A stretch of 64,000 bases of DNA, taken from the NCBI RefSeq assembly GCF_053078305.1, contig NZ_CP166879.1; one strand, 5' to 3'. Under the pieces are notes generated by a model. The model was not told where the DNA came from. It saw only the letters and a program-made list of their open reading frames with translations, and ran no database searches. The position numbers and the translations under genes were made by a program. The number at the start of each line of letters is the position of its first letter. Positions within the stretch are counted from its first letter, which is position 1. Shown piece after piece: positions 3,947 through 12,911 of this stretch.

Positions 3947-4546
3947 TTATCTGTTTTGGTGGTCGCCCTCAACTAACACCAGCAATAACTGGCTTAATGC
4001 CGCGTAAAAACCAAAGCTGTCATACTGATGGCAACGCGCAGCAAACTCTGGTAACCATTGCCACAGCGCCGTGAGTGTTTTTTGCCGTAAACTGTCGATT
4101 CTTCGCGCAGGAACCGTCCCCTCTCCCAGCGAAAAATGCAGATGACTCAACAACTCGAGATAGATCGCCAGATGATCTGCCGGTTCGTTGAAATTGCCGC
4201 TGGTTTCCATCCCTGCCTCAACTAACAAGCGTTTAATCTCTTGCTCGTCCTGTTTGTAGGCCGATGCATACGGCAGCGCCGCTTGTTTGTCAGTCATCAG
4301 AAACAGGCCGCAAAAGTCTGCGGCCAGTTCCAGACGGGCATCGTCACGTACTGTCAGAGTGGCAACACGCTTTTCCAGCTCATCCACCGCCGCAGTGAGC
4401 GGCGGTTCGCTTTTCAGCAACGAAAACCATTCAGCCATCTGCGCACTGGCGATTTGCGTCAGTTGTTCATCGTCCAGTTCACGGGAGAACAACTGCGCCA
4501 GCCAGGCGTAAACACAGGCTATCTGTTGTGCTGTCAGCGTGGTCAT
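3947..4546 (-). CDS. torD: TorA-specific chaperone TorD
   Basis: 199-aa product [26 protein letters not shown]...; ATG overlaps torA stop; track ORF starts 11 codons upstream. Confidence 0.92.
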
Positions 4547-7089
4547 AATTTCACCTGCGACGCGGGAACATATTCGCACTGCGCCACCATCTCCACGGGG
4601 CCGTTAAACGCCGTTACCTGCTCCACTGTTCCGTTGTACTTCTCAATTTCCACCAGCGTAGTGTGCGCACTGGTCGCCTGCGCCAGCTGCGAAGTACCGA
4701 TGTCGATGGTCAACACGTTGGGGTTACCATATTTGCACAGCGCACCAGGCTCGCCGCCTTTATCTGGATCGTACCATGCCCCTTCGTGAATTCGCGCCAC
4801 GCCGGGTGCATAGCGGTCAGAAACTACTGCCCCTGCCAACACCTGACCGCGAGCGTTAAAGACGCGTACCACATCACCGTTACGAATACCGCGCGCGCTG
4901 GCATCCTGCGGGTTAATGAACACTGGCTCTTTACCCGCTACCGTATATTGCTGACGCAGAGTTTCCGACTCACATAACTGCGAGTGAAGTCGGAAATCCG
5001 GATGCACAGATTGCAGATGCAACGGATACGTCTGCGAGCCGGGCCCACCGTGGGAGCGTTCGATTTTCTCAAACCACATCGGATGCCCCTGACAATCGTC
5101 GTAGTTCATATCGGCGATGGTTTTCGAATAGATCTCAATCAGGCCACTCGGCGTGCCCAGCGGTTCGAGATCCGGATCTTCGCGGAATGCCTGGTGGCGA
5201 ACAAACATCTGCGGATGGTCAAACTCGACGTACTCTTTGTTATTCCAGAAGTCATCAAACGCTGGCAAATGAACGCCGCGTCCTTTGCCTTGCTGAACAC
5301 CTTCCTGCCAGATGCGTTTCAGCCAGCCCATTTCGTCCAGCCCTTCGGTAAAGGCTTCTTCGCGATTAAAGCGGCGGCACAGCTCACGGAAAATATCAAA
5401 GTCGTTGCGCGCCTCGAACTGCGGCGGCACGACCTGTTTCATGGCGATAATGCCACGGTTGGAGTGGTTGCCGTACTGGTCGAGATCGTTACGCTCAAAC
5501 TGCGTGGTCGCAGGCAGCACGATATCGGCAAAGCGGCAGGTTGAGGTCCACTGGTTATCTATGGCGATAACCGTTTCCAGCTTGCGCCAGCCTTCAATAA
5601 TGCGGTTGATCTGCTGATGGCGATGGAATGGGTTAGTTCCGGCAAAAATACACATTTTCAGCGGCGGCAGTTTTACCGATTTACCGTTCCAGTTGATCAC
5701 TTTCCCCGGTTCGAGGATCGCATCGATAAAACGGGCAATCGGAATGGTGCTGCTGTAGCCTTTGTAATCACTGTTGTCGTGAACAGGCGGAATCGACGTA
5801 GAGCCGGAGAAACCACTCAGAATAACGCCTTTACGCCCCGGCGTGCCTGCGCCGTTATAGTGCCAGCCAAAACCAAAGCCACCACCTGGCAGGCCAATTT
5901 GCCCCAGCATCGCCGCCAGAACCACAATCATCCACGCCCACTGTTCACCGTGCTGCATACGCTGTACGCACCAGCCAGCAATAATCTGCGTTCTGTTCGC
6001 CGCCATCTGCCGCGCCAGCCCACGAATGGTTTCGGCATCAATGCCGGTCAGTTTTTCAGCCCATGCAGCATCTTTCGGCTGACCGTCTTTCTCGCCCAGC
6101 AGATACGGCAGGAACTGCTCAAAACCCACACAGTAGTTAGCGAGGAAGTTTTTGTCGTACAGGTTTTCACTGTACAGCGTATGCGCCAGCGCCAGTTGCA
6201 GCGGCACGTCAGTTTGCGGGTTAACCGCAATGTGCTTCACATGCTCGCGCCCCAGATACTCATGGGTGGATGTAACAACCGGATCGATGCTAATGACCTC
6301 CATTTCACCGGCAGCGACTTTCGCTTTCAACTGCGCGTAATATTCATAAACATCGTGATCCGGGCACCACCAGTTCGCTTGCTGGTTTTTCAGCAAATCG
6401 GAGCCCCACAGCACAATGGTTTTGCTGTTCTGCAATACCAGCGGCCAGGAGGTTTGCTGTTCATACACTTCCATCGAACCGACTACGCGCGGCAGGATCA
6501 CCTGCGCAGCACCAGTAGAGTAATCTCCGCCCGTACCAACGCTATTACCATGCAAGGCAATAGCTTTCGCCAGCATCCCCGAAGCGTTATGGAACATCCC
6601 CGTCGATTGCCAACCACTGGCGGTCAGCAAGGCACTCGGCCCGTGAGTTTTCTGTACGCGTTCCAGTTCTTCATAGAACATGTCGAGGGCTTCATCCCAG
6701 CTCACGCGCACAAAACGGTTATCACCGCGCTGGGAGGTGTCGCTCAGATGGCGCTTACGCAGCCAATCCACGCGTACCATCGGATAACGAATACGCGCCG
6801 CGTTGTGTACGTGGTCCGGCAATCCGGCGATCATTTTCGACGGATATTTATCCAGTTCGAACGGTTTTGCCGCCACAAAGCGACCATCCTTCACCGTCGC
6901 GCGGATAGCCCCCCAGTGCGACCCGGTAAGAATGCCCTCTTTCGAGATGACAGCCTCAGTCGCCGCTTGCGCCGCAGTCGCACGGCGCGGCGTTAACAAT
7001 GACGGCCCCAGCATCCCGGCGACGGTTAAGCCGCCGAGTTGTGCCAGAAAACGCCGACGTGATGCCTGAAAGAGATCGTTATTGTTCAT
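4543..7089 (-). CDS. torA: trimethylamine-N-oxide reductase TorA (molybdoenzyme)
   Basis: 848 aa, N-terminal Tat signal [42 protein letters not shown]. Confidence 0.96.
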
Positions 7090-8261
7090 TATTTTTCTTC
7101 CTTCTTATCGCCGTGAGCCTTACCTGCGGTGTCAGACGCATTCATTTGCAGATATTTCAACAAGGTGCGTTCTTCACGTTTATCGAGGCTGGTAAAGCCA
7201 ATCATGCCGTTGAGCGTGCCAATCCAGCCGTTAGCGTCAAAGTGAGAGATTTCCGGTGCGCCGTGGCACTGGTTACAGGTGCCGTTGTACAACGAATCCG
7301 CATATGCCCAGATCGGTTTGATATCGTTCACCATGTCGCCTTTCTTCATCCACGCGGTGGCCTGCAACTTGCTCCACTCGGTATTGGTGTCGGCAACGGT
7401 GGTTTTCTCCAGCGTTTTCACCTGCTGCTGCACATCACCACGAATCGAGGCAACAAAGATGCGTTTACCTGGGAATTGGGTGAGTACACGCTGACGTCCG
7501 GCGCTTTCTGTCCAGCCGGTAATTTCAATTTGCAGCCAGTCGCCGTCACGTTTAAGGACTTTCACTTCCGAGGCAGGCAGCAGAGAACCTGAGGCTTCTT
7601 TATCGCCTTTCGCCGCATAAATCGGCTTAATATCAATAGAGTACAGCGTGTCGCCACTGTCATTAGCACCGGCGCGCAGCTCATCGAACTGCTTACGGAA
7701 GCCGCTACTCATATCCGGTAACTGGTGGGCAATACCTTTATGACAGTCGATGCAGGATTGATTATCTTTCGCTGCCACCTTCATCTGACGTGCCGCTTCA
7801 GGATGCTGCTTCGCATGATCCATCGCATCGTAGTTATGGCAGGAGCGACAGGTTGCCGAGTTGTTTTCTTTCATTCGCGCCCATTCACGCTCGGCAAGTT
7901 CCGCGCGTTTGGCTTCAAATTTTTCAGGTGTATCAATGGAGTGGGCAATAAAGGTCTGGTAGATATCGTTGCTCGCTTCCAGTTTGCGCTTCACCATGCC
8001 TGGAATATCCGGCGGGATATGACAGTCATGGCATTCAGCTCGCACGCCGGAGGCGTTCTGGAAATGCACCGACTGTTTATATTCTTCATACACCGGTTGC
8101 ATACTGTGGCAACTGACACAAAATTCGGTTGTGCTGGTGACTTTGATCCCAACGTGTGGCAATACAATCAGCGAAATGCCAATCACAATCCCAATAGCGA
8201 CCAGCGCCAGTACCGACCAACGAGCACTGGGTCGGCGTAGCGCGTTCCAGAGTTTCCGCAT
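7089..8261 (-). CDS. torC: pentahaem c-type cytochrome TorC
   Basis: 390-aa product from MRKLWNALRRPSARWSVLALVAIGIV; several CxxCH haem motifs; track ORF extends 16 codons upstream. Confidence 0.93.
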   Translation of the reverse strand: MRKLWNALRRPSARWSVLALVAIGIVIGISLIVLPHVGIKVTSTTEFCVSCHSMQPVYEEYKQSVHFQNASGVRAECHDCHIPPDIPGMVKRKLEASNDIYQTFIAHSIDTPEKFEAKRAELAEREWARMKENNSATCRSCHNYDAMDHAKQHPEAARQMKVAAKDNQSCIDCHKGIAHQLPDMSSGFRKQFDELRAGANDSGDTLYSIDIKPIYAAKGDKEASGSLLPASEVKVLKRDGDWLQIEITGWTESAGRQRVLTQFPGKRIFVASIRGDVQQQVKTLEKTTVADTNTEWSKLQATAWMKKGDMVNDIKPIWAYADSLYNGTCNQCHGAPEISHFDANGWIGTLNGMIGFTSLDKREERTLLKYLQMNASDTAGKAHGDKKEEK

Positions 8262-8309
8262 AATAGCCCCTGTAAAATTATGGTTTAGTGAAGCGATCTT
8301 AATGAGCAA

Positions 8310-8372
8310 ATATGAACAGCGGCACTGGTCAGGATGAATGGCTTACGGCAGAATATGAACAGATATGAACAG
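8310..8372. promoter_or_regulatory. torCAD promoter region with TorR boxes (decamer CTGTTCATAT as read on the torC strand)
   Basis: atatgaacag at about 8310-8319 and in tandem at 8353-8372 (reverse complement CTGTTCATAT), plus a degenerate copy near 8333; lies between divergent torC and torR. Confidence 0.8.
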
Positions 8373-8390
8373 AATGAGTAAAACCCTCTG

Positions 8391-9083
8391 ATGCCACATC
8401 ACATTGTTATTGTTGAAGATGAGCCGGTTACCCAGGCGCGATTACAATCCTACTTCACTCAGGAGGGGTATACCGTTTCCGTTACGGCGAGCGGTGCCGG
8501 GCTACGGGAAATTATGCAGAATCAGCCGGTGGATTTAATTCTGCTGGATATCAACTTGCCCGATGAAAATGGCCTGATGTTAACCCGCGCCCTGCGAGAA
8601 CGCTCAACGGTGGGGATTATTCTGGTTACCGGACGCAGCGATCGGATTGACCGTATTGTTGGGCTGGAAATGGGCGCAGACGATTACGTCACCAAACCGC
8701 TGGAACTGCGCGAACTGGTAGTACGGGTAAAAAATCTGCTCTGGCGAATCGACCTCGCGCGACAAGTTCAACCGCTCACTCAGGACAACTGCTATCGCTT
8801 TGCCGGTTATTGCCTGAATGTGTCGCGCCATACGCTGGAGCGGGATGGCGAGCCGATTAAACTGACCCGCGCAGAGTATGAAATGTTGGTGGCATTTGTG
8901 ACCAATCCGGGCGAAATTCTCAGCCGTGAACGTCTGCTTCGTATGCTCTCTGCGCGTCGGGTGGAAAACCCTGACCTGCGCACCGTCGATGTGTTAATTC
9001 GTCGTTTACGCCATAAACTCAGCGCGGATTTACTGGTGACGCAACATGGCGAAGGTTATTTCTTAGCCGCTGATGTGTGCTGA
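8391..9083 (+). CDS. torR: response regulator TorR (OmpR family)
   Basis: 230 aa MPHHIVIVEDEPVTQARLQSYFTQEGYTVSV; receiver plus winged-helix domains. Confidence 0.95.
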   Translation: MPHHIVIVEDEPVTQARLQSYFTQEGYTVSVTASGAGLREIMQNQPVDLILLDINLPDENGLMLTRALRERSTVGIILVTGRSDRIDRIVGLEMGADDYVTKPLELRELVVRVKNLLWRIDLARQVQPLTQDNCYRFAGYCLNVSRHTLERDGEPIKLTRAEYEMLVAFVTNPGEILSRERLLRMLSARRVENPDLRTVDVLIRRLRHKLSADLLVTQHGEGYFLAADVC

Positions 9084-10084
9084 TAAAAATAGACCGGACG
9101 AAATCCCCCTGGCGACAGCGAGCGGCGGATATGTTCGCGGTCGGCATTTTTCGGCGTCAGAACTAAAATCGGTGGGCTGACATTATCAGACACCGATTGC
9201 CCCTGTAATTGCCTGATGGCCTGCTCAACTGCCAGTTCCCCCTGCCAGACCATTTGATCGCTGGCAGCCATAATCACTCTTCCCCGCTTCAGCCCGCGAT
9301 ACACCTGATGTGAAAGATAAAACGACACCACGGTAAGCGGCGTTTTCAGGTTACGCCCTTCCCCCATTGCCGCCTCTGCCGCAATGGCCGTTCCGGCAAC
9401 GACGTCGATTTCTGGATGGCGTTCCAGCATCTCCTGCAACAGGTTACGCTGGATTTCAATATCGTTATCACCAAGCGCAATATCAACAATACGCACCGGG
9501 CTTCCGGCAATGGCTGCGCGAAAACCCTCGACCATCTCCTTACTGCCCCCGGCGTTATCGGGTCCGGGCATCAACAGCACGTTCAGTGGTTTACCGTGCG
9601 CCCATTGCACCAAATATCGCCCAGGTTGATAGCCCATCTGAAACCAGGGTACACCAACGCGGCTTTTCACCTGGGGAGCATCAATAGCATTTACCAGTTC
9701 GATCACCGGCAGACTTGCTACCTGCTTTTGCAGATCGGGAAATGACGTCGTGCTACTACCGAGCAAAATGGCCTCTGCGCCCCACTGTTTACACTGGTCG
9801 ATTTGTGCTTGCTGGGTAGCCAACTGGCTGTAGCCGCCTGCCTCCAGCACTTTTAAATCCACACCGTAGCGGCGAGCAGCCTCCTGCATACCATAGTTCA
9901 ACGATAACCAGTATGAATCTTTCAGGCTGGGATAAAGCGCGCACAGTTTCCAGGCGCGTTTGGCTTTAAGCGGCGTAGAGGATTGCACCGTGAAATGCTG
10001 CGCATCATGCCAGCGCAACAGGTTATCAGCCGAAAATGCCGGCAACATGAAAAGGGAAAGAAGTAAAAATAGCAGTACGCGCAT
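9056..10084 (-). CDS. torT: periplasmic TMAO-binding protein TorT
   Basis: 342 aa with signal peptide [21 protein letters not shown]; overlaps torR end as in K-12. Confidence 0.93.
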
Positions 10085-10166: not shown

Positions 10167-12911
10167 GTGAATTTAACCCTGACCCGAAGACTCTGGATGG
10201 GCTTTGCCCTGATGGCGCTGTTAACCCTGACCAGTACCCTGGTGGGATGGTACAACCTGCGCTTTATCAGCCAGGTGGAAAAAGACAATACTCAGGCATT
10301 GATTCCTACCATGAATATGGCGCGCCAGTTGAGCGAAGCCAGCGCCTGGGAACTTTTCGCCGCGCAGAACCTGACCAGTGCCGATAACGAAAAGATGTGG
10401 CAGGCGCAGGGGCGAATGCTCACCGCACAAAGCCTGAAGATTAATGCGTTGCTGCAAGCGTTACGGGAACAAGGTTTTGATACCACCGCTATTGAACAAC
10501 AGGAGCAGGAGATCTCCCGTTCGTTACGTCAGCAAGGGGAACTGGTGGGGCAGCGTTTGCAACTGCGCCAGCAACAACAGCGACTCAGTCAGCAGATAGT
10601 CGCTGCCGCCGATGAGATCGCACGCCTGGCGCAAGGTCAGGCGAATAATGCGGCAACCTCCGCCGGAGCGACCCAGGCCGGGATTTACGATTTGATCGAA
10701 CAAGATCAGCGTCAGGCTGCTGAAAGTGCACTCGATCGGCTGATTGATATCGATCTTGAGTATGTTAACCAGATGAATGAACTGCGCCTTAGCGCTCTGC
10801 GGGTGCAGCAAATGGTGATGAATCTGGGGCTGGAGCAGATCCAGAAAAATGCGCCAACGCTGGAAAAGCAGCTCAATAATGCGGTGAAAATTCTGCAACG
10901 TCGGCAAATACGCATTGAAGATCCGGGAGTTCGTGCTCAGGTCGCAACAACGTTAACTACCGTTAGCCAATATAGCGATTTGCTGGCGCTGTTCCAGCAG
11001 GACAGTGAAATCAGCAATCACCTGCAAACTCTCGCCCAAAATAATATCGCCCAGTTCGCGCAGTTTAGTAGCGAAGTCAGTCAGCTGGTCGACACCATTG
11101 AGCTGCGCAATCAGCATGGACTGGCGCATCTGGAAAAAGCCAGTGCACGCGGGCAATACAGCCTGTTATTGCTGGGGATGGTTTCACTTTGCGCACTGAT
11201 TCTGATCCTCTGGCGCGTGGTTTATCGCTCAGTCACGCGTCCACTTGCCGAACAAACGCAGGCGCTGCAACGGCTGCTGGACGGTGATATTGACTCCCCT
11301 TTTCCGGAAACCGCTGGCGTACGGGAGCTGGATACCATCGGGCGGCTGATGGATGCGTTTCGCAGCAGTGTTCATGCACTGAATCGCCACCGCGAACAGC
11401 TGGCGGCGCAGGTCAAAGCACGTACAGCTGAATTGCAGGAACTGGTGATAGAACACCGACAGGCACGGGCGGAAGCAGAAAAAGCCAGCCAGGCAAAATC
11501 GGCGTTTCTGGCGGCGATGAGCCATGAGATCCGCACACCGCTGTACGGTATTCTCGGCACCGCACAGCTACTGGCAGATAACCCCGCACTTAACGCCCAG
11601 CGTGATGATTTGCGGGCGATTACCGACTCTGGCGAATCGTTGCTGACCATCCTGAACGATATTCTCGATTATTCGGCTATCGAAGCAGGCGGCAAGAATG
11701 TTTCGGTCAGCGATGAACCCTTTGAACCGCGACCGCTGCTGGAAAGTACCCTGCAATTAATGAGTGGACGGGTGAAAGGTCGCCCGATTCGCCTGGCAAC
11801 GGCAATTGCCGACGATGTACCGACTGCGTTAATGGGCGATCCGCGGCGTATTCGTCAGGTCATTACCAACCTGTTGAGCAACGCCCTGCGTTTTACTGAC
11901 GAAGGGCAGATCGTTTTACGTAGCCGTACTGATGGTGAGCAATGGCTGGTCGAAGTGGAAGACAGCGGCTGCGGTATTGATCCCGCGAAACTGGCAGAAA
12001 TCTTCCAGCCATTTATTCAGGTAAGTGGCAAACGCGGCGGCACCGGGCTGGGGCTGACTATCAGTAGCCGTCTGGCCCAGGCGATGGGCGGCGAACTGAG
12101 CGCCACCAGCACGCTGGAGGTTGGAAGCTGTTTTTGTTTACGCTTGCCGTTACGTGTTGCCACAGCACCCGCGCCAAAAACAGCCAATCAGGCGGTGCGT
12201 CTGGACGGTTTACGTTTGCTGTTAATTGAAGATAACCCGCTAACCCAGCGAATTACCGTTGAGATGCTGAACACCAGTGGTGCGCAGGTTGTTGCTATTG
12301 GCAATGCCGCGCAGGCTTTAGAGACACTGCAAAATAGCGAACCGTTTGCTGCCGCACTGGTGGATTTTGATCTGCCGGATATCGACGGCATTACCCTTGC
12401 CCGGCAACTGGCACAGCAATATCCGTCGCTGGTTTTGATTGGCTTTAGCGCTCATGTCATTGACGAAACGCTGCGCCAGCGTACCAGTTCACTATTTCGC
12501 GGGATTATCCCTAAACCGGTGCCGCGTGAAGTGCTAGGTCAGTTACTGGCGCACTATCTCCAACTGCAAGTCAATAACGATATACCACTTGATGTATCGC
12601 AACTCAATGAAGATGCTCAATTAATGGGGACGGAGAAGATCCACGAATGGCTGGCATTATTTAAACAACATGCCCTGCCGCTTCTCGATGAAATCGACAT
12701 TGCCCGCGCCAGCCAGGACAGCGAGAAAATAAAGCGTGCCGCGCATCAGCTAAAAAGCAGTTGCTCGAGTCTGGGAATGCGTAGCGCCAGCCAGCTATGC
12801 GCACAACTGGAGCAGCAGCCATTATCTGCCCCCCTTCCACACGAAGAAATTACACGCAGTGTTGCCGCTCTGGAAGCATGGTTGAATAAGAAAGACCTGA
12901 ACGCGATTTGA
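10167..12911 (+). CDS. torS: hybrid sensor histidine kinase TorS
   Basis: GTG start ([19 protein letters not shown]), 914 aa; H-box SHEIRTPL, receiver and HPt domains; track ORF start at 9960 overlaps torT and is not used. Confidence 0.92.

What the first reader, a model, noticed from the sequence alone, without database searches (positions are those of the whole stretch)
8262..8390. torCAD promoter with tandem TorR decamer boxes intact
The torC-torR divergent intergenic region carries the CTGTTCATAT decamers described for TorR binding, including two perfectly tandem copies. This is known regulation, recorded for completeness.
Basis: established knowledge. Interest (0 to 1): 0.15.

Follow-up and report, generated by a model that had tools for sequence, protein, structure and literature searches.

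The report
Known TorR boxes of torCAD promoter
This is the ordinary, well-characterised E. coli control region between torR and torC, where the TorR regulator binds repeated 10-base boxes to switch on TMAO respiration; the only departure from the K-12 reference is a rare one-base change in the weak fourth box.

Summary
Coordinates 8262-8390 are exactly the 129-bp gap between divergent torC (7089-8261, minus) and torR (8391-9083, plus). CTGTTCATAT occurs exactly three times in the 64-kb window against 0.07 expected. All three lie here on the torC-sense strand: box1 8363-8372, box2 8353-8362 (the two abut) and box4 8310-8319.

The region aligns without gaps to K-12 MG1655, so the decamers sit at the positions of the published tor boxes 1, 2 and 4. 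The whole locus torD-torA-torC/torR/torT/torS is intact and colinear with K-12. The same four-box layout (starts at 0, +10, +31, +53) lies beside torR/torC homologues in Escherichia, Salmonella, Edwardsiella, Providencia and Grimontia.

One caveat applies to "intact". The low-affinity box3 (8332-8341) reads CCATTCATCC, not K-12's CCGTTCATCC. This allele is in about 103 of 5,415 complete E. coli genomes, and it hits a position that is G in all 12 comparison sequences.

The mechanism, taken from the literature, is as follows. TorR occupies box1-box2, which represses torR. Phosphorylated TorR then fills box3 and box4 cooperatively next to the TAAGAT -10 element and activates torCAD.

Verdict: already known, low interest.

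The parts
8262..8390 (.). torC-torR divergent intergenic region (129 bp), the tor regulatory region
   Evidence: Lies between the torC ATG (8261, minus) and the torR ATG (8391, plus). Same length as K-12, with 3 SNPs and no indels.
8363..8372 (-). tor box1, CTGTTCATAT (half of the high-affinity TorR site; ends 18 bp before the torR ATG)
   Evidence: Exact match. Same position as K-12 box1. Invariant in 10 aligned sequences from 5 genera.
8353..8362 (-). tor box2, CTGTTCATAT, abutting box1 (perfect tandem)
   Evidence: Exact match. Invariant across 5 genera.
8332..8341 (-). tor box3, the low-affinity site: CCATTCATCC here against CCGTTCATCC in K-12 (SNP at 8339)
   Evidence: Alignment to K-12. 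Starts 21 bp after the box2 start and 22 bp before the box4 start, as in all compared genera. The allele is in about 103 of 5,415 genomes.
8310..8319 (-). tor box4, CTGTTCATAT, promoter-proximal, 8 bp upstream of the -10-like hexamer
   Evidence: Exact match. The TTCATAT part is invariant in 10 aligned sequences.
8296..8301 (-). torC -10-like hexamer TAAGAT (inferred promoter element)
   Evidence: Conserved at a fixed distance from box4 in Escherichia, Salmonella, Edwardsiella and Providencia. PMC10845959 places the torC -10 region at TTGCT(nnnn)AAGAT. No consensus sigma-70 promoter is found by the scan, as expected for an activator-dependent promoter.
8262..8289 (-). torC 5' leader, about 28 nt; the start at 8289 is inferred from the -10 position. 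It carries 2 SNPs against K-12, at 8275 and 8266.
   Evidence: SNPs. The window haplotype is in 3,443 genomes and the K-12 haplotype in 1,525. PMC10845959 proposes a bis-MGD-dependent element from +1 to beyond +48. No Rfam family matches.
7089..8261 (-). torC, pentahaem c-type cytochrome, first gene of torCAD
   Evidence: NCBIfam equivalog at 880 bits against a cut-off of 455. 3 aa differences from K-12 and no internal stops.
4543..7089 (-). torA, TMAO reductase
   Evidence: Colinear with K-12 torA, 5 aa differences, intact.
3947..4546 (-). torD, TorA chaperone
   Evidence: Colinear with K-12 torD, 6 aa differences, intact.
8391..9083 (+). torR, OmpR/PhoB-family response regulator that binds the boxes
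   Evidence: NCBIfam TorR equivalog at 425 bits against a cut-off of 275. Pfam Response_reg at residues 5-113 and Trans_reg_C at 153-225. The only differences from K-12 are at residues 46, 126 and 129, outside the DNA-binding domain.
9056..10084 (-). torT, periplasmic TMAO-binding protein
   Evidence: Colinear with K-12, 1 aa difference.
10167..12911 (+). torS, sensor kinase
   Evidence: Colinear with K-12, 23 aa differences, intact, GTG start as in the K-12 annotation frame.

Best explanation
This is the E. coli tor regulatory region, a bidirectional control region with four direct 10-bp TorR sites on the torC-sense strand. All four sit on one face of the helix, with starts at 0, +10, +31 and +53. 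From the literature: box1-box2, the perfect tandem next to torR, is the high-affinity site. TorR occupies it whether or not it is phosphorylated, it covers the torR transcription start, and it therefore represses torR. When TMAO is sensed through TorT and TorS, phosphorylated TorR additionally fills the low-affinity box3 and box4 cooperatively. Box4 sits 8 bp upstream of the TAAGAT -10 element in place of a -35 hexamer, so bound TorR recruits RNA polymerase and turns on torCAD. In this window all parts are present and in K-12 register. The one departure is a G->A substitution at position 3 of box3. I infer that this weakens an already weak site slightly but does not abolish induction. Shown here: sequence, position, conservation and gene identity. 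Taken from the literature: binding and activation. Inferred: the effect of the SNP, the exact transcription starts and the torR promoter hexamers.
For: Three exact decamers against 0.07 expected, all within 63 bp on one strand. Gap-free alignment to K-12 puts them at box1, box2 and box4. Flanking genes reach the TorC and TorR equivalog cut-offs. The TorR DNA-binding domain is identical to K-12. The whole locus is intact and colinear with K-12. The region is present in 5,415-5,416 of 5,426 complete E. coli genomes. The exact 20-bp tandem was found in 20 of 100,044 species genomes. 15 of these are Escherichia, Salmonella, Edwardsiella, Providencia or Grimontia. In 13 the tandem lies between torR and torC homologues. 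The other two loci end before the torR side, and there it lies just upstream of torC. Where a full intergenic region was read (12 sequences besides the window), box spacing was 10/21/22; Providencia vermicola has 10/31/22. Box1-box2, the TTCA core of box3 and TTCATAT of box4 are invariant in the 10-sequence alignment, while flanks diverge. Literature: box sequences and TorR gel shifts on boxes 1, 2 and 4 (PMC9239176). TorR-P binds the torCAD promoter while ArcA-P and FNR do not (PMC10845959). Phosphorylated and unphosphorylated TorR bind the boxes in vivo (PMC5294996 citing Ansaldi 2000).
Against: Nothing argues against the identification. Limits are as follows. The primary footprinting and mutagenesis papers (Simon 1995; Ansaldi 2000) are not held. 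The high/low-affinity assignment, torR start coverage and phasing requirement therefore rest on secondary citations and my own knowledge. Box3 here lacks the G that is present in all 12 comparison sequences, so full wild-type inducibility is not guaranteed. The simple promoter scan finds no sigma-70 consensus on either strand, so promoter hexamers are inferred.
Confidence: 0.95

Rival explanations
1. The promoter is not functionally intact. On this reading the box3 G->A change removes a conserved contact, impairs cooperative loading of phosphorylated TorR on box3-box4, and leaves torCAD poorly inducible by TMAO in this strain.
For: Position 3 of box3 is G in 12 of 12 comparison sequences from five genera. 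The A allele is rare, at about 103 of 5,415 complete E. coli genomes. Box3 is already a weak site that does not shift with TorR on its own (PMC9239176).
Against: The TTCAT core and the phasing are retained. Box4 of Providencia (CCATTCATAT) and of Grimontia (ATATTCATAT) carries A at the same box position in otherwise conserved tor promoters. The allele persists in about 100 genomes of varied serotypes and hosts, and every tor gene in this window is intact, which does not suggest a decaying system.
Confidence: 0.2
2. The decamers are chance or slippage-generated repeats with no regulatory role.
For: Five MAGs (Bacteroidales, Lachnospiraceae, Synergistaceae, Clostridia) carry the same 20-mer with unrelated flanks and no tor genes. 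Such tandems can therefore arise independently.
Against: The expected count in the window is 0.07 against 3 observed. Sequence, strand and position are the same next to torC (and torR wherever the locus reaches it) across five genera, despite diverged flanks. Binding by TorR is published.
Confidence: 0.01
3. The repeats are primarily sites for another regulator, such as the TorR paralogue ArcA or FNR, rather than for TorR.
For: ArcA is the closest paralogue of TorR (215 bits to the ArcA model). PMC10845959 notes ArcA-like and weak FNR-like motifs overlapping the region.
Against: The same paper reports that ArcA-P and FNR do not bind the torCAD promoter, whereas TorR-P does.
Confidence: 0.02

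Closest known systems
E. coli K-12 torR-torC regulatory region with tor boxes 1-4 (Simon et al. 1995 Mol Microbiol 17:971; Ansaldi et al. 2000 J Bacteriol 182:961)
   Same: Same genes, same 129-bp length, and identical box1, box2 and box4 sequences and positions. The -10-like TAAGAT is identical, and so is the TorR DNA-binding domain.
   Different: There are three SNPs. The first is box3 G->A at 8339, a rare allele found in about 1.9% of complete genomes. The other two are in the torC leader at 8275 and 8266, where the window carries the commoner haplotype and K-12 the rarer one.
tor promoters of Salmonella, Edwardsiella, Providencia and Grimontia
   Same: A perfect box1-box2 tandem and 10/21/22 spacing of four direct boxes next to divergent torR.
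   Different: Flanks, leader and box3/box4 details differ. Providencia vermicola has an extra degenerate decamer, TTATTCACAT, after box2, which shifts box3 by exactly 10 bp. The Grimontia intergenic region is 414 bp long.
PhoB pho boxes and other OmpR-family direct-repeat sites that replace the -35 element (general knowledge of the OmpR/PhoB family)
   Same: A winged-helix response regulator (Trans_reg_C) binds head-to-tail direct repeats with about one helical turn of periodicity, with the proximal repeat just upstream of a -10 element and no -35 consensus.
   Different: The tor region uses 10-bp units split into a distal high-affinity tandem and two proximal low-affinity sites. The distal pair also acts as the operator for the divergent regulator gene.

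Membership tests
E. coli tor regulatory region (tor boxes) | Lies in the short intergenic region between divergently transcribed torR and torCAD | tested here: met
   torC 7089-8261 (minus) and torR 8391-9083 (plus). Both exceed the NCBIfam equivalog cut-offs, and the locus is colinear with K-12.
E. coli tor regulatory region (tor boxes) | Three consensus decamers CTGTTCATAT in direct orientation, with box1 and box2 abutting | tested here: met
   Exact matches at 8363-8372, 8353-8362 and 8310-8319, all on the minus strand. The sequences are as published in PMC9239176.
E. coli tor regulatory region (tor boxes) | A degenerate low-affinity box3 in phase between box2 and box4 | tested here: met
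   A decamer with the TTCAT core at 8332-8341. Its start is 21 bp after the box2 start and 22 bp before the box4 start, as in K-12 and four other genera.
E. coli tor regulatory region (tor boxes) | Box3 sequence CCGTTCATCC as in K-12 | tested here: not met
   The window reads CCATTCATCC, a single G->A change at 8339. It matches the consensus at 6 of 10 positions rather than 7 of 10. The allele is rare.
E. coli tor regulatory region (tor boxes) | Box spacing and helical phasing identical to the characterised K-12 promoter | tested here: met
   Gap-free alignment, with box starts 111, 101, 80 and 58 nt upstream of the torC ATG in both sequences.
E. coli tor regulatory region (tor boxes) | Cognate regulator TorR present, with the same DNA-binding domain | tested here: met
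   TorR equivalog at 425 bits. Trans_reg_C spans residues 153-225, and the differences from K-12 are only at residues 46, 126 and 129.
E. coli tor regulatory region (tor boxes) | TorR physically binds or protects the boxes, and TMAO induces torCAD through them | not testable with these tools
   Literature only. Gel shifts on boxes 1, 2 and 4 (PMC9239176). [quoted passage not shown] The footprint papers are not held.
OmpR/PhoB-type activator site replacing the -35 element | Proximal repeat adjacent to a -10 element, with no -35 consensus | tested here: met
   Box4 ends 8 bp upstream of the conserved TAAGAT. The promoter scan finds no sigma-70 consensus pair.

The most novel reading that the evidence does not exclude
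The box3 G->A allele at 8339 could be a natural cis-regulatory variant. It is present in about 2% of complete E. coli genomes and sits at a position otherwise invariant across five genera. It might measurably lower cooperative TorR-P occupancy of box3-box4. That would change the amplitude, the threshold or the cell-to-cell heterogeneity of torCAD induction by TMAO in the lineages that carry it.
Probability: 0.3. Interest if true: 0.25.

Novelty: already known. Interest (0 to 1): 0.08.

Why it matters
It matters little beyond annotation. The finding confirms that this strain has a complete TMAO-respiration locus under its textbook TorT/TorS/TorR control. The modest added value is a catalogue of natural variation in a well-studied promoter:

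- a rare box3 allele;
- the fact that K-12 carries the minority haplotype in the torC leader, where a cofactor-dependent element has recently been proposed;
- two repeat-mediated deletions in other strains.

These could serve as ready-made natural mutants for anyone who studies TorR cooperativity.

Tried and rejected
- **Primary papers.** I tried to read Simon 1994 and Ansaldi 2000, but they are not held. Simon 1995 appears in a reference list only, without a PMC id. I relied on secondary descriptions and on my own knowledge, marked as such.
- **Promoter and terminator scan of 8200-8450.** Nothing was found on either strand. Promoter elements are therefore inferred from conservation, not from the scan.
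- **Rfam scan of 8050-8600 at E <= 1.** No family matched, so no known riboswitch or leader RNA sits in the torC 5' region.
- **Other TorR sites in the window.** One- and two-mismatch decamers are near background at 59 against 45.0 +/- 6.4 (2 of 100 shuffles reach 59, a count that includes the three true sites). I rejected them as sites.
- **The two leader SNPs as a compensatory pair.** I read the sequence and found no pairing between them, so I rejected the idea without running a fold.
- **The five MAG occurrences of the 20-mer.** Their flanks are unrelated and they have no tor genes, so I treated them as independent occurrences.

Full report
**Observation**

The sequence at 8262-8390 was read on both strands. 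CTGTTCATAT occurs exactly three times in the 64-kb window. All three copies are on the minus strand, at 8363-8372, 8353-8362 and 8310-8319. Shuffled sequence gives 0.07 on average, and no shuffle reached 3. The first two copies abut and form a perfect 20-bp tandem. Allowing up to two mismatches gives 59 hits against 45.0 +/- 6.4 expected, so the rest of the window holds no excess of such sites.

The stated coordinates are exactly the 129-bp gap between two ATG codons. One is at 8261 on the minus strand and the other at 8391 on the plus strand.

**Identity of the locus**

A 329-bp query around the region matches 5,416 of 5,426 complete E. coli genomes. In every listed record the match lies under the features annotated torC and torR. 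The K-12 MG1655 region was fetched as L001. Window coordinates equal L001 coordinates plus 2161 for all nine genes compared, cbpA through yccM, so these genes contain no insertions or deletions.

The genes cbpA, cbpM, torD, torA, torC, torR, torT, torS and yccM are all open. They carry 0 to 23 amino-acid differences from K-12. The two flanking proteins exceed the NCBIfam equivalog cut-offs:

| Protein | Score (bits) | Cut-off (bits) |
|---|---|---|
| TorC | 880 | 455 |
| TorR | 425 | 275 |

TorR has a receiver domain and a Trans_reg_C winged-helix domain at residues 153-225. Its three differences from K-12 are at residues 46, 126 and 129, all outside that domain. No complete genome in the collection is identical over the 9.1-kb tor locus; the best match is 99.6%.

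**Comparison with the characterised promoter**

The intergenic region aligns to K-12 without gaps. Read in the torC sense, the box starts lie 111, 101, 80 and 58 nt upstream of the torC ATG in both sequences. The literature held here gives box1, box2 and box4 as CTGTTCATAT and box3 as CCGTTCATCC. It reports TorR gel shifts on boxes 1, 2 and 4 with Kd 0.97-3.11 uM, and none on box3 alone (PMC9239176).

A second paper reports that TorR-P binds the torCAD promoter while ArcA-P and FNR do not. It places the -10 region at TTGCT(nnnn)AAGAT (PMC10845959). The three decamers in the window are therefore box1, box2 and box4.

The primary footprint and mutagenesis papers (Simon et al. 1995; Ansaldi et al. 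2000) are not held. Several points therefore rest on my knowledge of Ansaldi 2000 and on secondary citation:

- box1-box2 is the high-affinity site;
- it covers the torR transcription start and mediates TMAO-independent negative autoregulation;
- box3 and box4 are low-affinity sites filled cooperatively by phosphorylated TorR;
- the spacing between box2 and box3 must keep the sites on one helical face.

**What differs from K-12**

The 129 bp carry three SNPs.

1. Position 8339 changes box3 from CCGTTCATCC to CCATTCATCC.
   - The 79-bp four-box segment is identical to the window in only 100 of 5,415 genomes, and identical to K-12 in 4,024.
   - A 68-bp segment that excludes a common polymorphism at 8307 gives 103 genomes.
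   - Carriers include O145:H28, O169:H41, O157:H16 and one O157:H7 strain, from varied hosts.
2. Positions 8275 and 8266 lie in the torC leader. There the window haplotype is the commoner one, in 3,443 genomes, and K-12 carries the rarer one, in 1,525.

So "intact" is right for the three consensus decamers and for the architecture. It is not strictly right for box3.

**Conservation beyond E. coli**

The exact 20-bp tandem was searched in one genome for each of 100,044 species, and 20 loci were found. Fifteen are from Escherichia, Salmonella enterica subspecies, Edwardsiella, Providencia and Grimontia. In 13 of them the tandem lies between torR and torC homologues. In the other two (Providencia vermicola and Grimontia celer) the fetched locus ends before the torR side, and the tandem lies just upstream of torC. 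Wherever torR is in the locus, the tandem is about 20 bp from it in the enteric genera, and further away in Grimontia marina.

In the 12 comparison intergenic sequences the four-box pattern has the same spacing of 10, 21 and 22 bp between box starts. This holds even in Grimontia, whose intergenic region is 414 bp long. In a ten-sequence alignment, box1-box2, the TTCA core of box3 and TTCATAT of box4 are invariant, while the flanks diverge. TAAGAT, 8 bp downstream of box4, is conserved in the four enteric genera.

Position 3 of box3 is G in all 12 comparison sequences, and the window alone has A. However, box4 carries A at that box position in Providencia and Grimontia. An A there is therefore compatible with a working tor box.

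**Mechanism**

*Shown here.* The region holds four direct decamers in K-12 register on the torC-sense strand. The proximal one lies next to a conserved -10-like hexamer, and the scan finds no -35 consensus. The regulator gene is divergent, and its DNA-binding domain is unchanged.

*From the literature.* TorT and TorS sense TMAO and phosphorylate TorR. TorR sits on box1-box2 in all conditions and represses torR. Phosphorylated TorR then fills box3-box4 and activates torCAD.

*Inferred.*
- The torC transcription start is near 8289, giving a 28-nt leader. This is consistent with the +1 to +31 numbering in PMC10845959.
- A candidate torR promoter has TGGTCA at 8326-8331 and GAATAT at 8351-8356, with a 19-bp spacer. 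It would start transcription near the box2/box1 junction.
- The box3 substitution has at most a modest weakening effect.

**Rivals**

- Chance or slippage without function is excluded by the statistics and by cross-genus conservation. The five MAG occurrences of the 20-mer have unrelated flanks and no tor genes.
- Binding by ArcA or FNR instead of TorR is contradicted by published binding assays.
- The only live alternative is that the box3 allele impairs induction. I give this about 0.2, for the reasons set out above.

**Verdict**

It is already known and of low interest. The rare box3 allele and a few natural variants are recorded as side observations.

Noticed in passing
window 8339 (box3, 8332-8341, minus strand): Box3 reads CCATTCATCC instead of K-12's CCGTTCATCC. 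The allele is in about 103 of 5,415 complete E. coli genomes (O145:H28, O169:H41, O157:H16 and others). It hits a position that is G in 12 of 12 comparison sequences from five genera.
   Followed up: partly
window 8266 and 8275 (torC 5' leader): There are two SNPs against K-12 in the leader. The window haplotype (8236-8305) is identical in 3,443 genomes and the K-12 haplotype in 1,525. K-12 is therefore the minority allele in the stretch that PMC10845959 proposes as a bis-MGD-responsive element. No Rfam family matches here.
   Followed up: partly
L002 (E. coli OkiPb01695), intergenic region about 2101-2186: This strain has a natural 43-bp deletion between direct tor boxes. It leaves only two abutting decamers directly upstream of the -10 region, so the intergenic region is 86 bp instead of 129.
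   Followed up: no
L007 (E. coli O166:H15 JNE21-009), intergenic region: This strain has a natural 10-bp deletion that removes one copy of the box1-box2 tandem, consistent with replication slippage. It halves the site described as high-affinity.
   Followed up: no
window 8320-8331 (spacer between box4 and box3): The spacer TGACCAGTG is nearly as conserved as the boxes in Escherichia, Salmonella, Edwardsiella and Providencia. Its reverse complement contains TGGTCA, a candidate torR -35 lying 19 bp upstream of GAATAT (8351-8356). This is inference only, because the promoter scan reports nothing.
   Followed up: no
L017 (Providencia vermicola), near 2262-2281: An extra degenerate decamer, TTATTCACAT, follows box2 and shifts box3 by exactly 10 bp, so the spacing is 31 instead of 21. 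This keeps the helical phase.
   Followed up: no
L012, L014, L018, L020, L026 (MAGs of Bacteroidales, Lachnospiraceae, Synergistaceae, Clostridia): The same 20-mer, CTGTTCATATCTGTTCATAT, occurs once in each with unrelated flanks and no tor genes. My own estimate for a random 20-mer in 298 Gb is about 0.5 occurrences, so five is more than expected. The cause is unknown; independent tandem duplications are one possibility.
   Followed up: partly
window 8307: The commonest polymorphism sampled in the E. coli four-box segment is G/A, between box4 and the -10 hexamer (TTTGCTC against TTTACTC). The window and K-12 have G. O157:H7 EC4115, E. albertii, E. whittamii and several other strains have A.
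   Followed up: no
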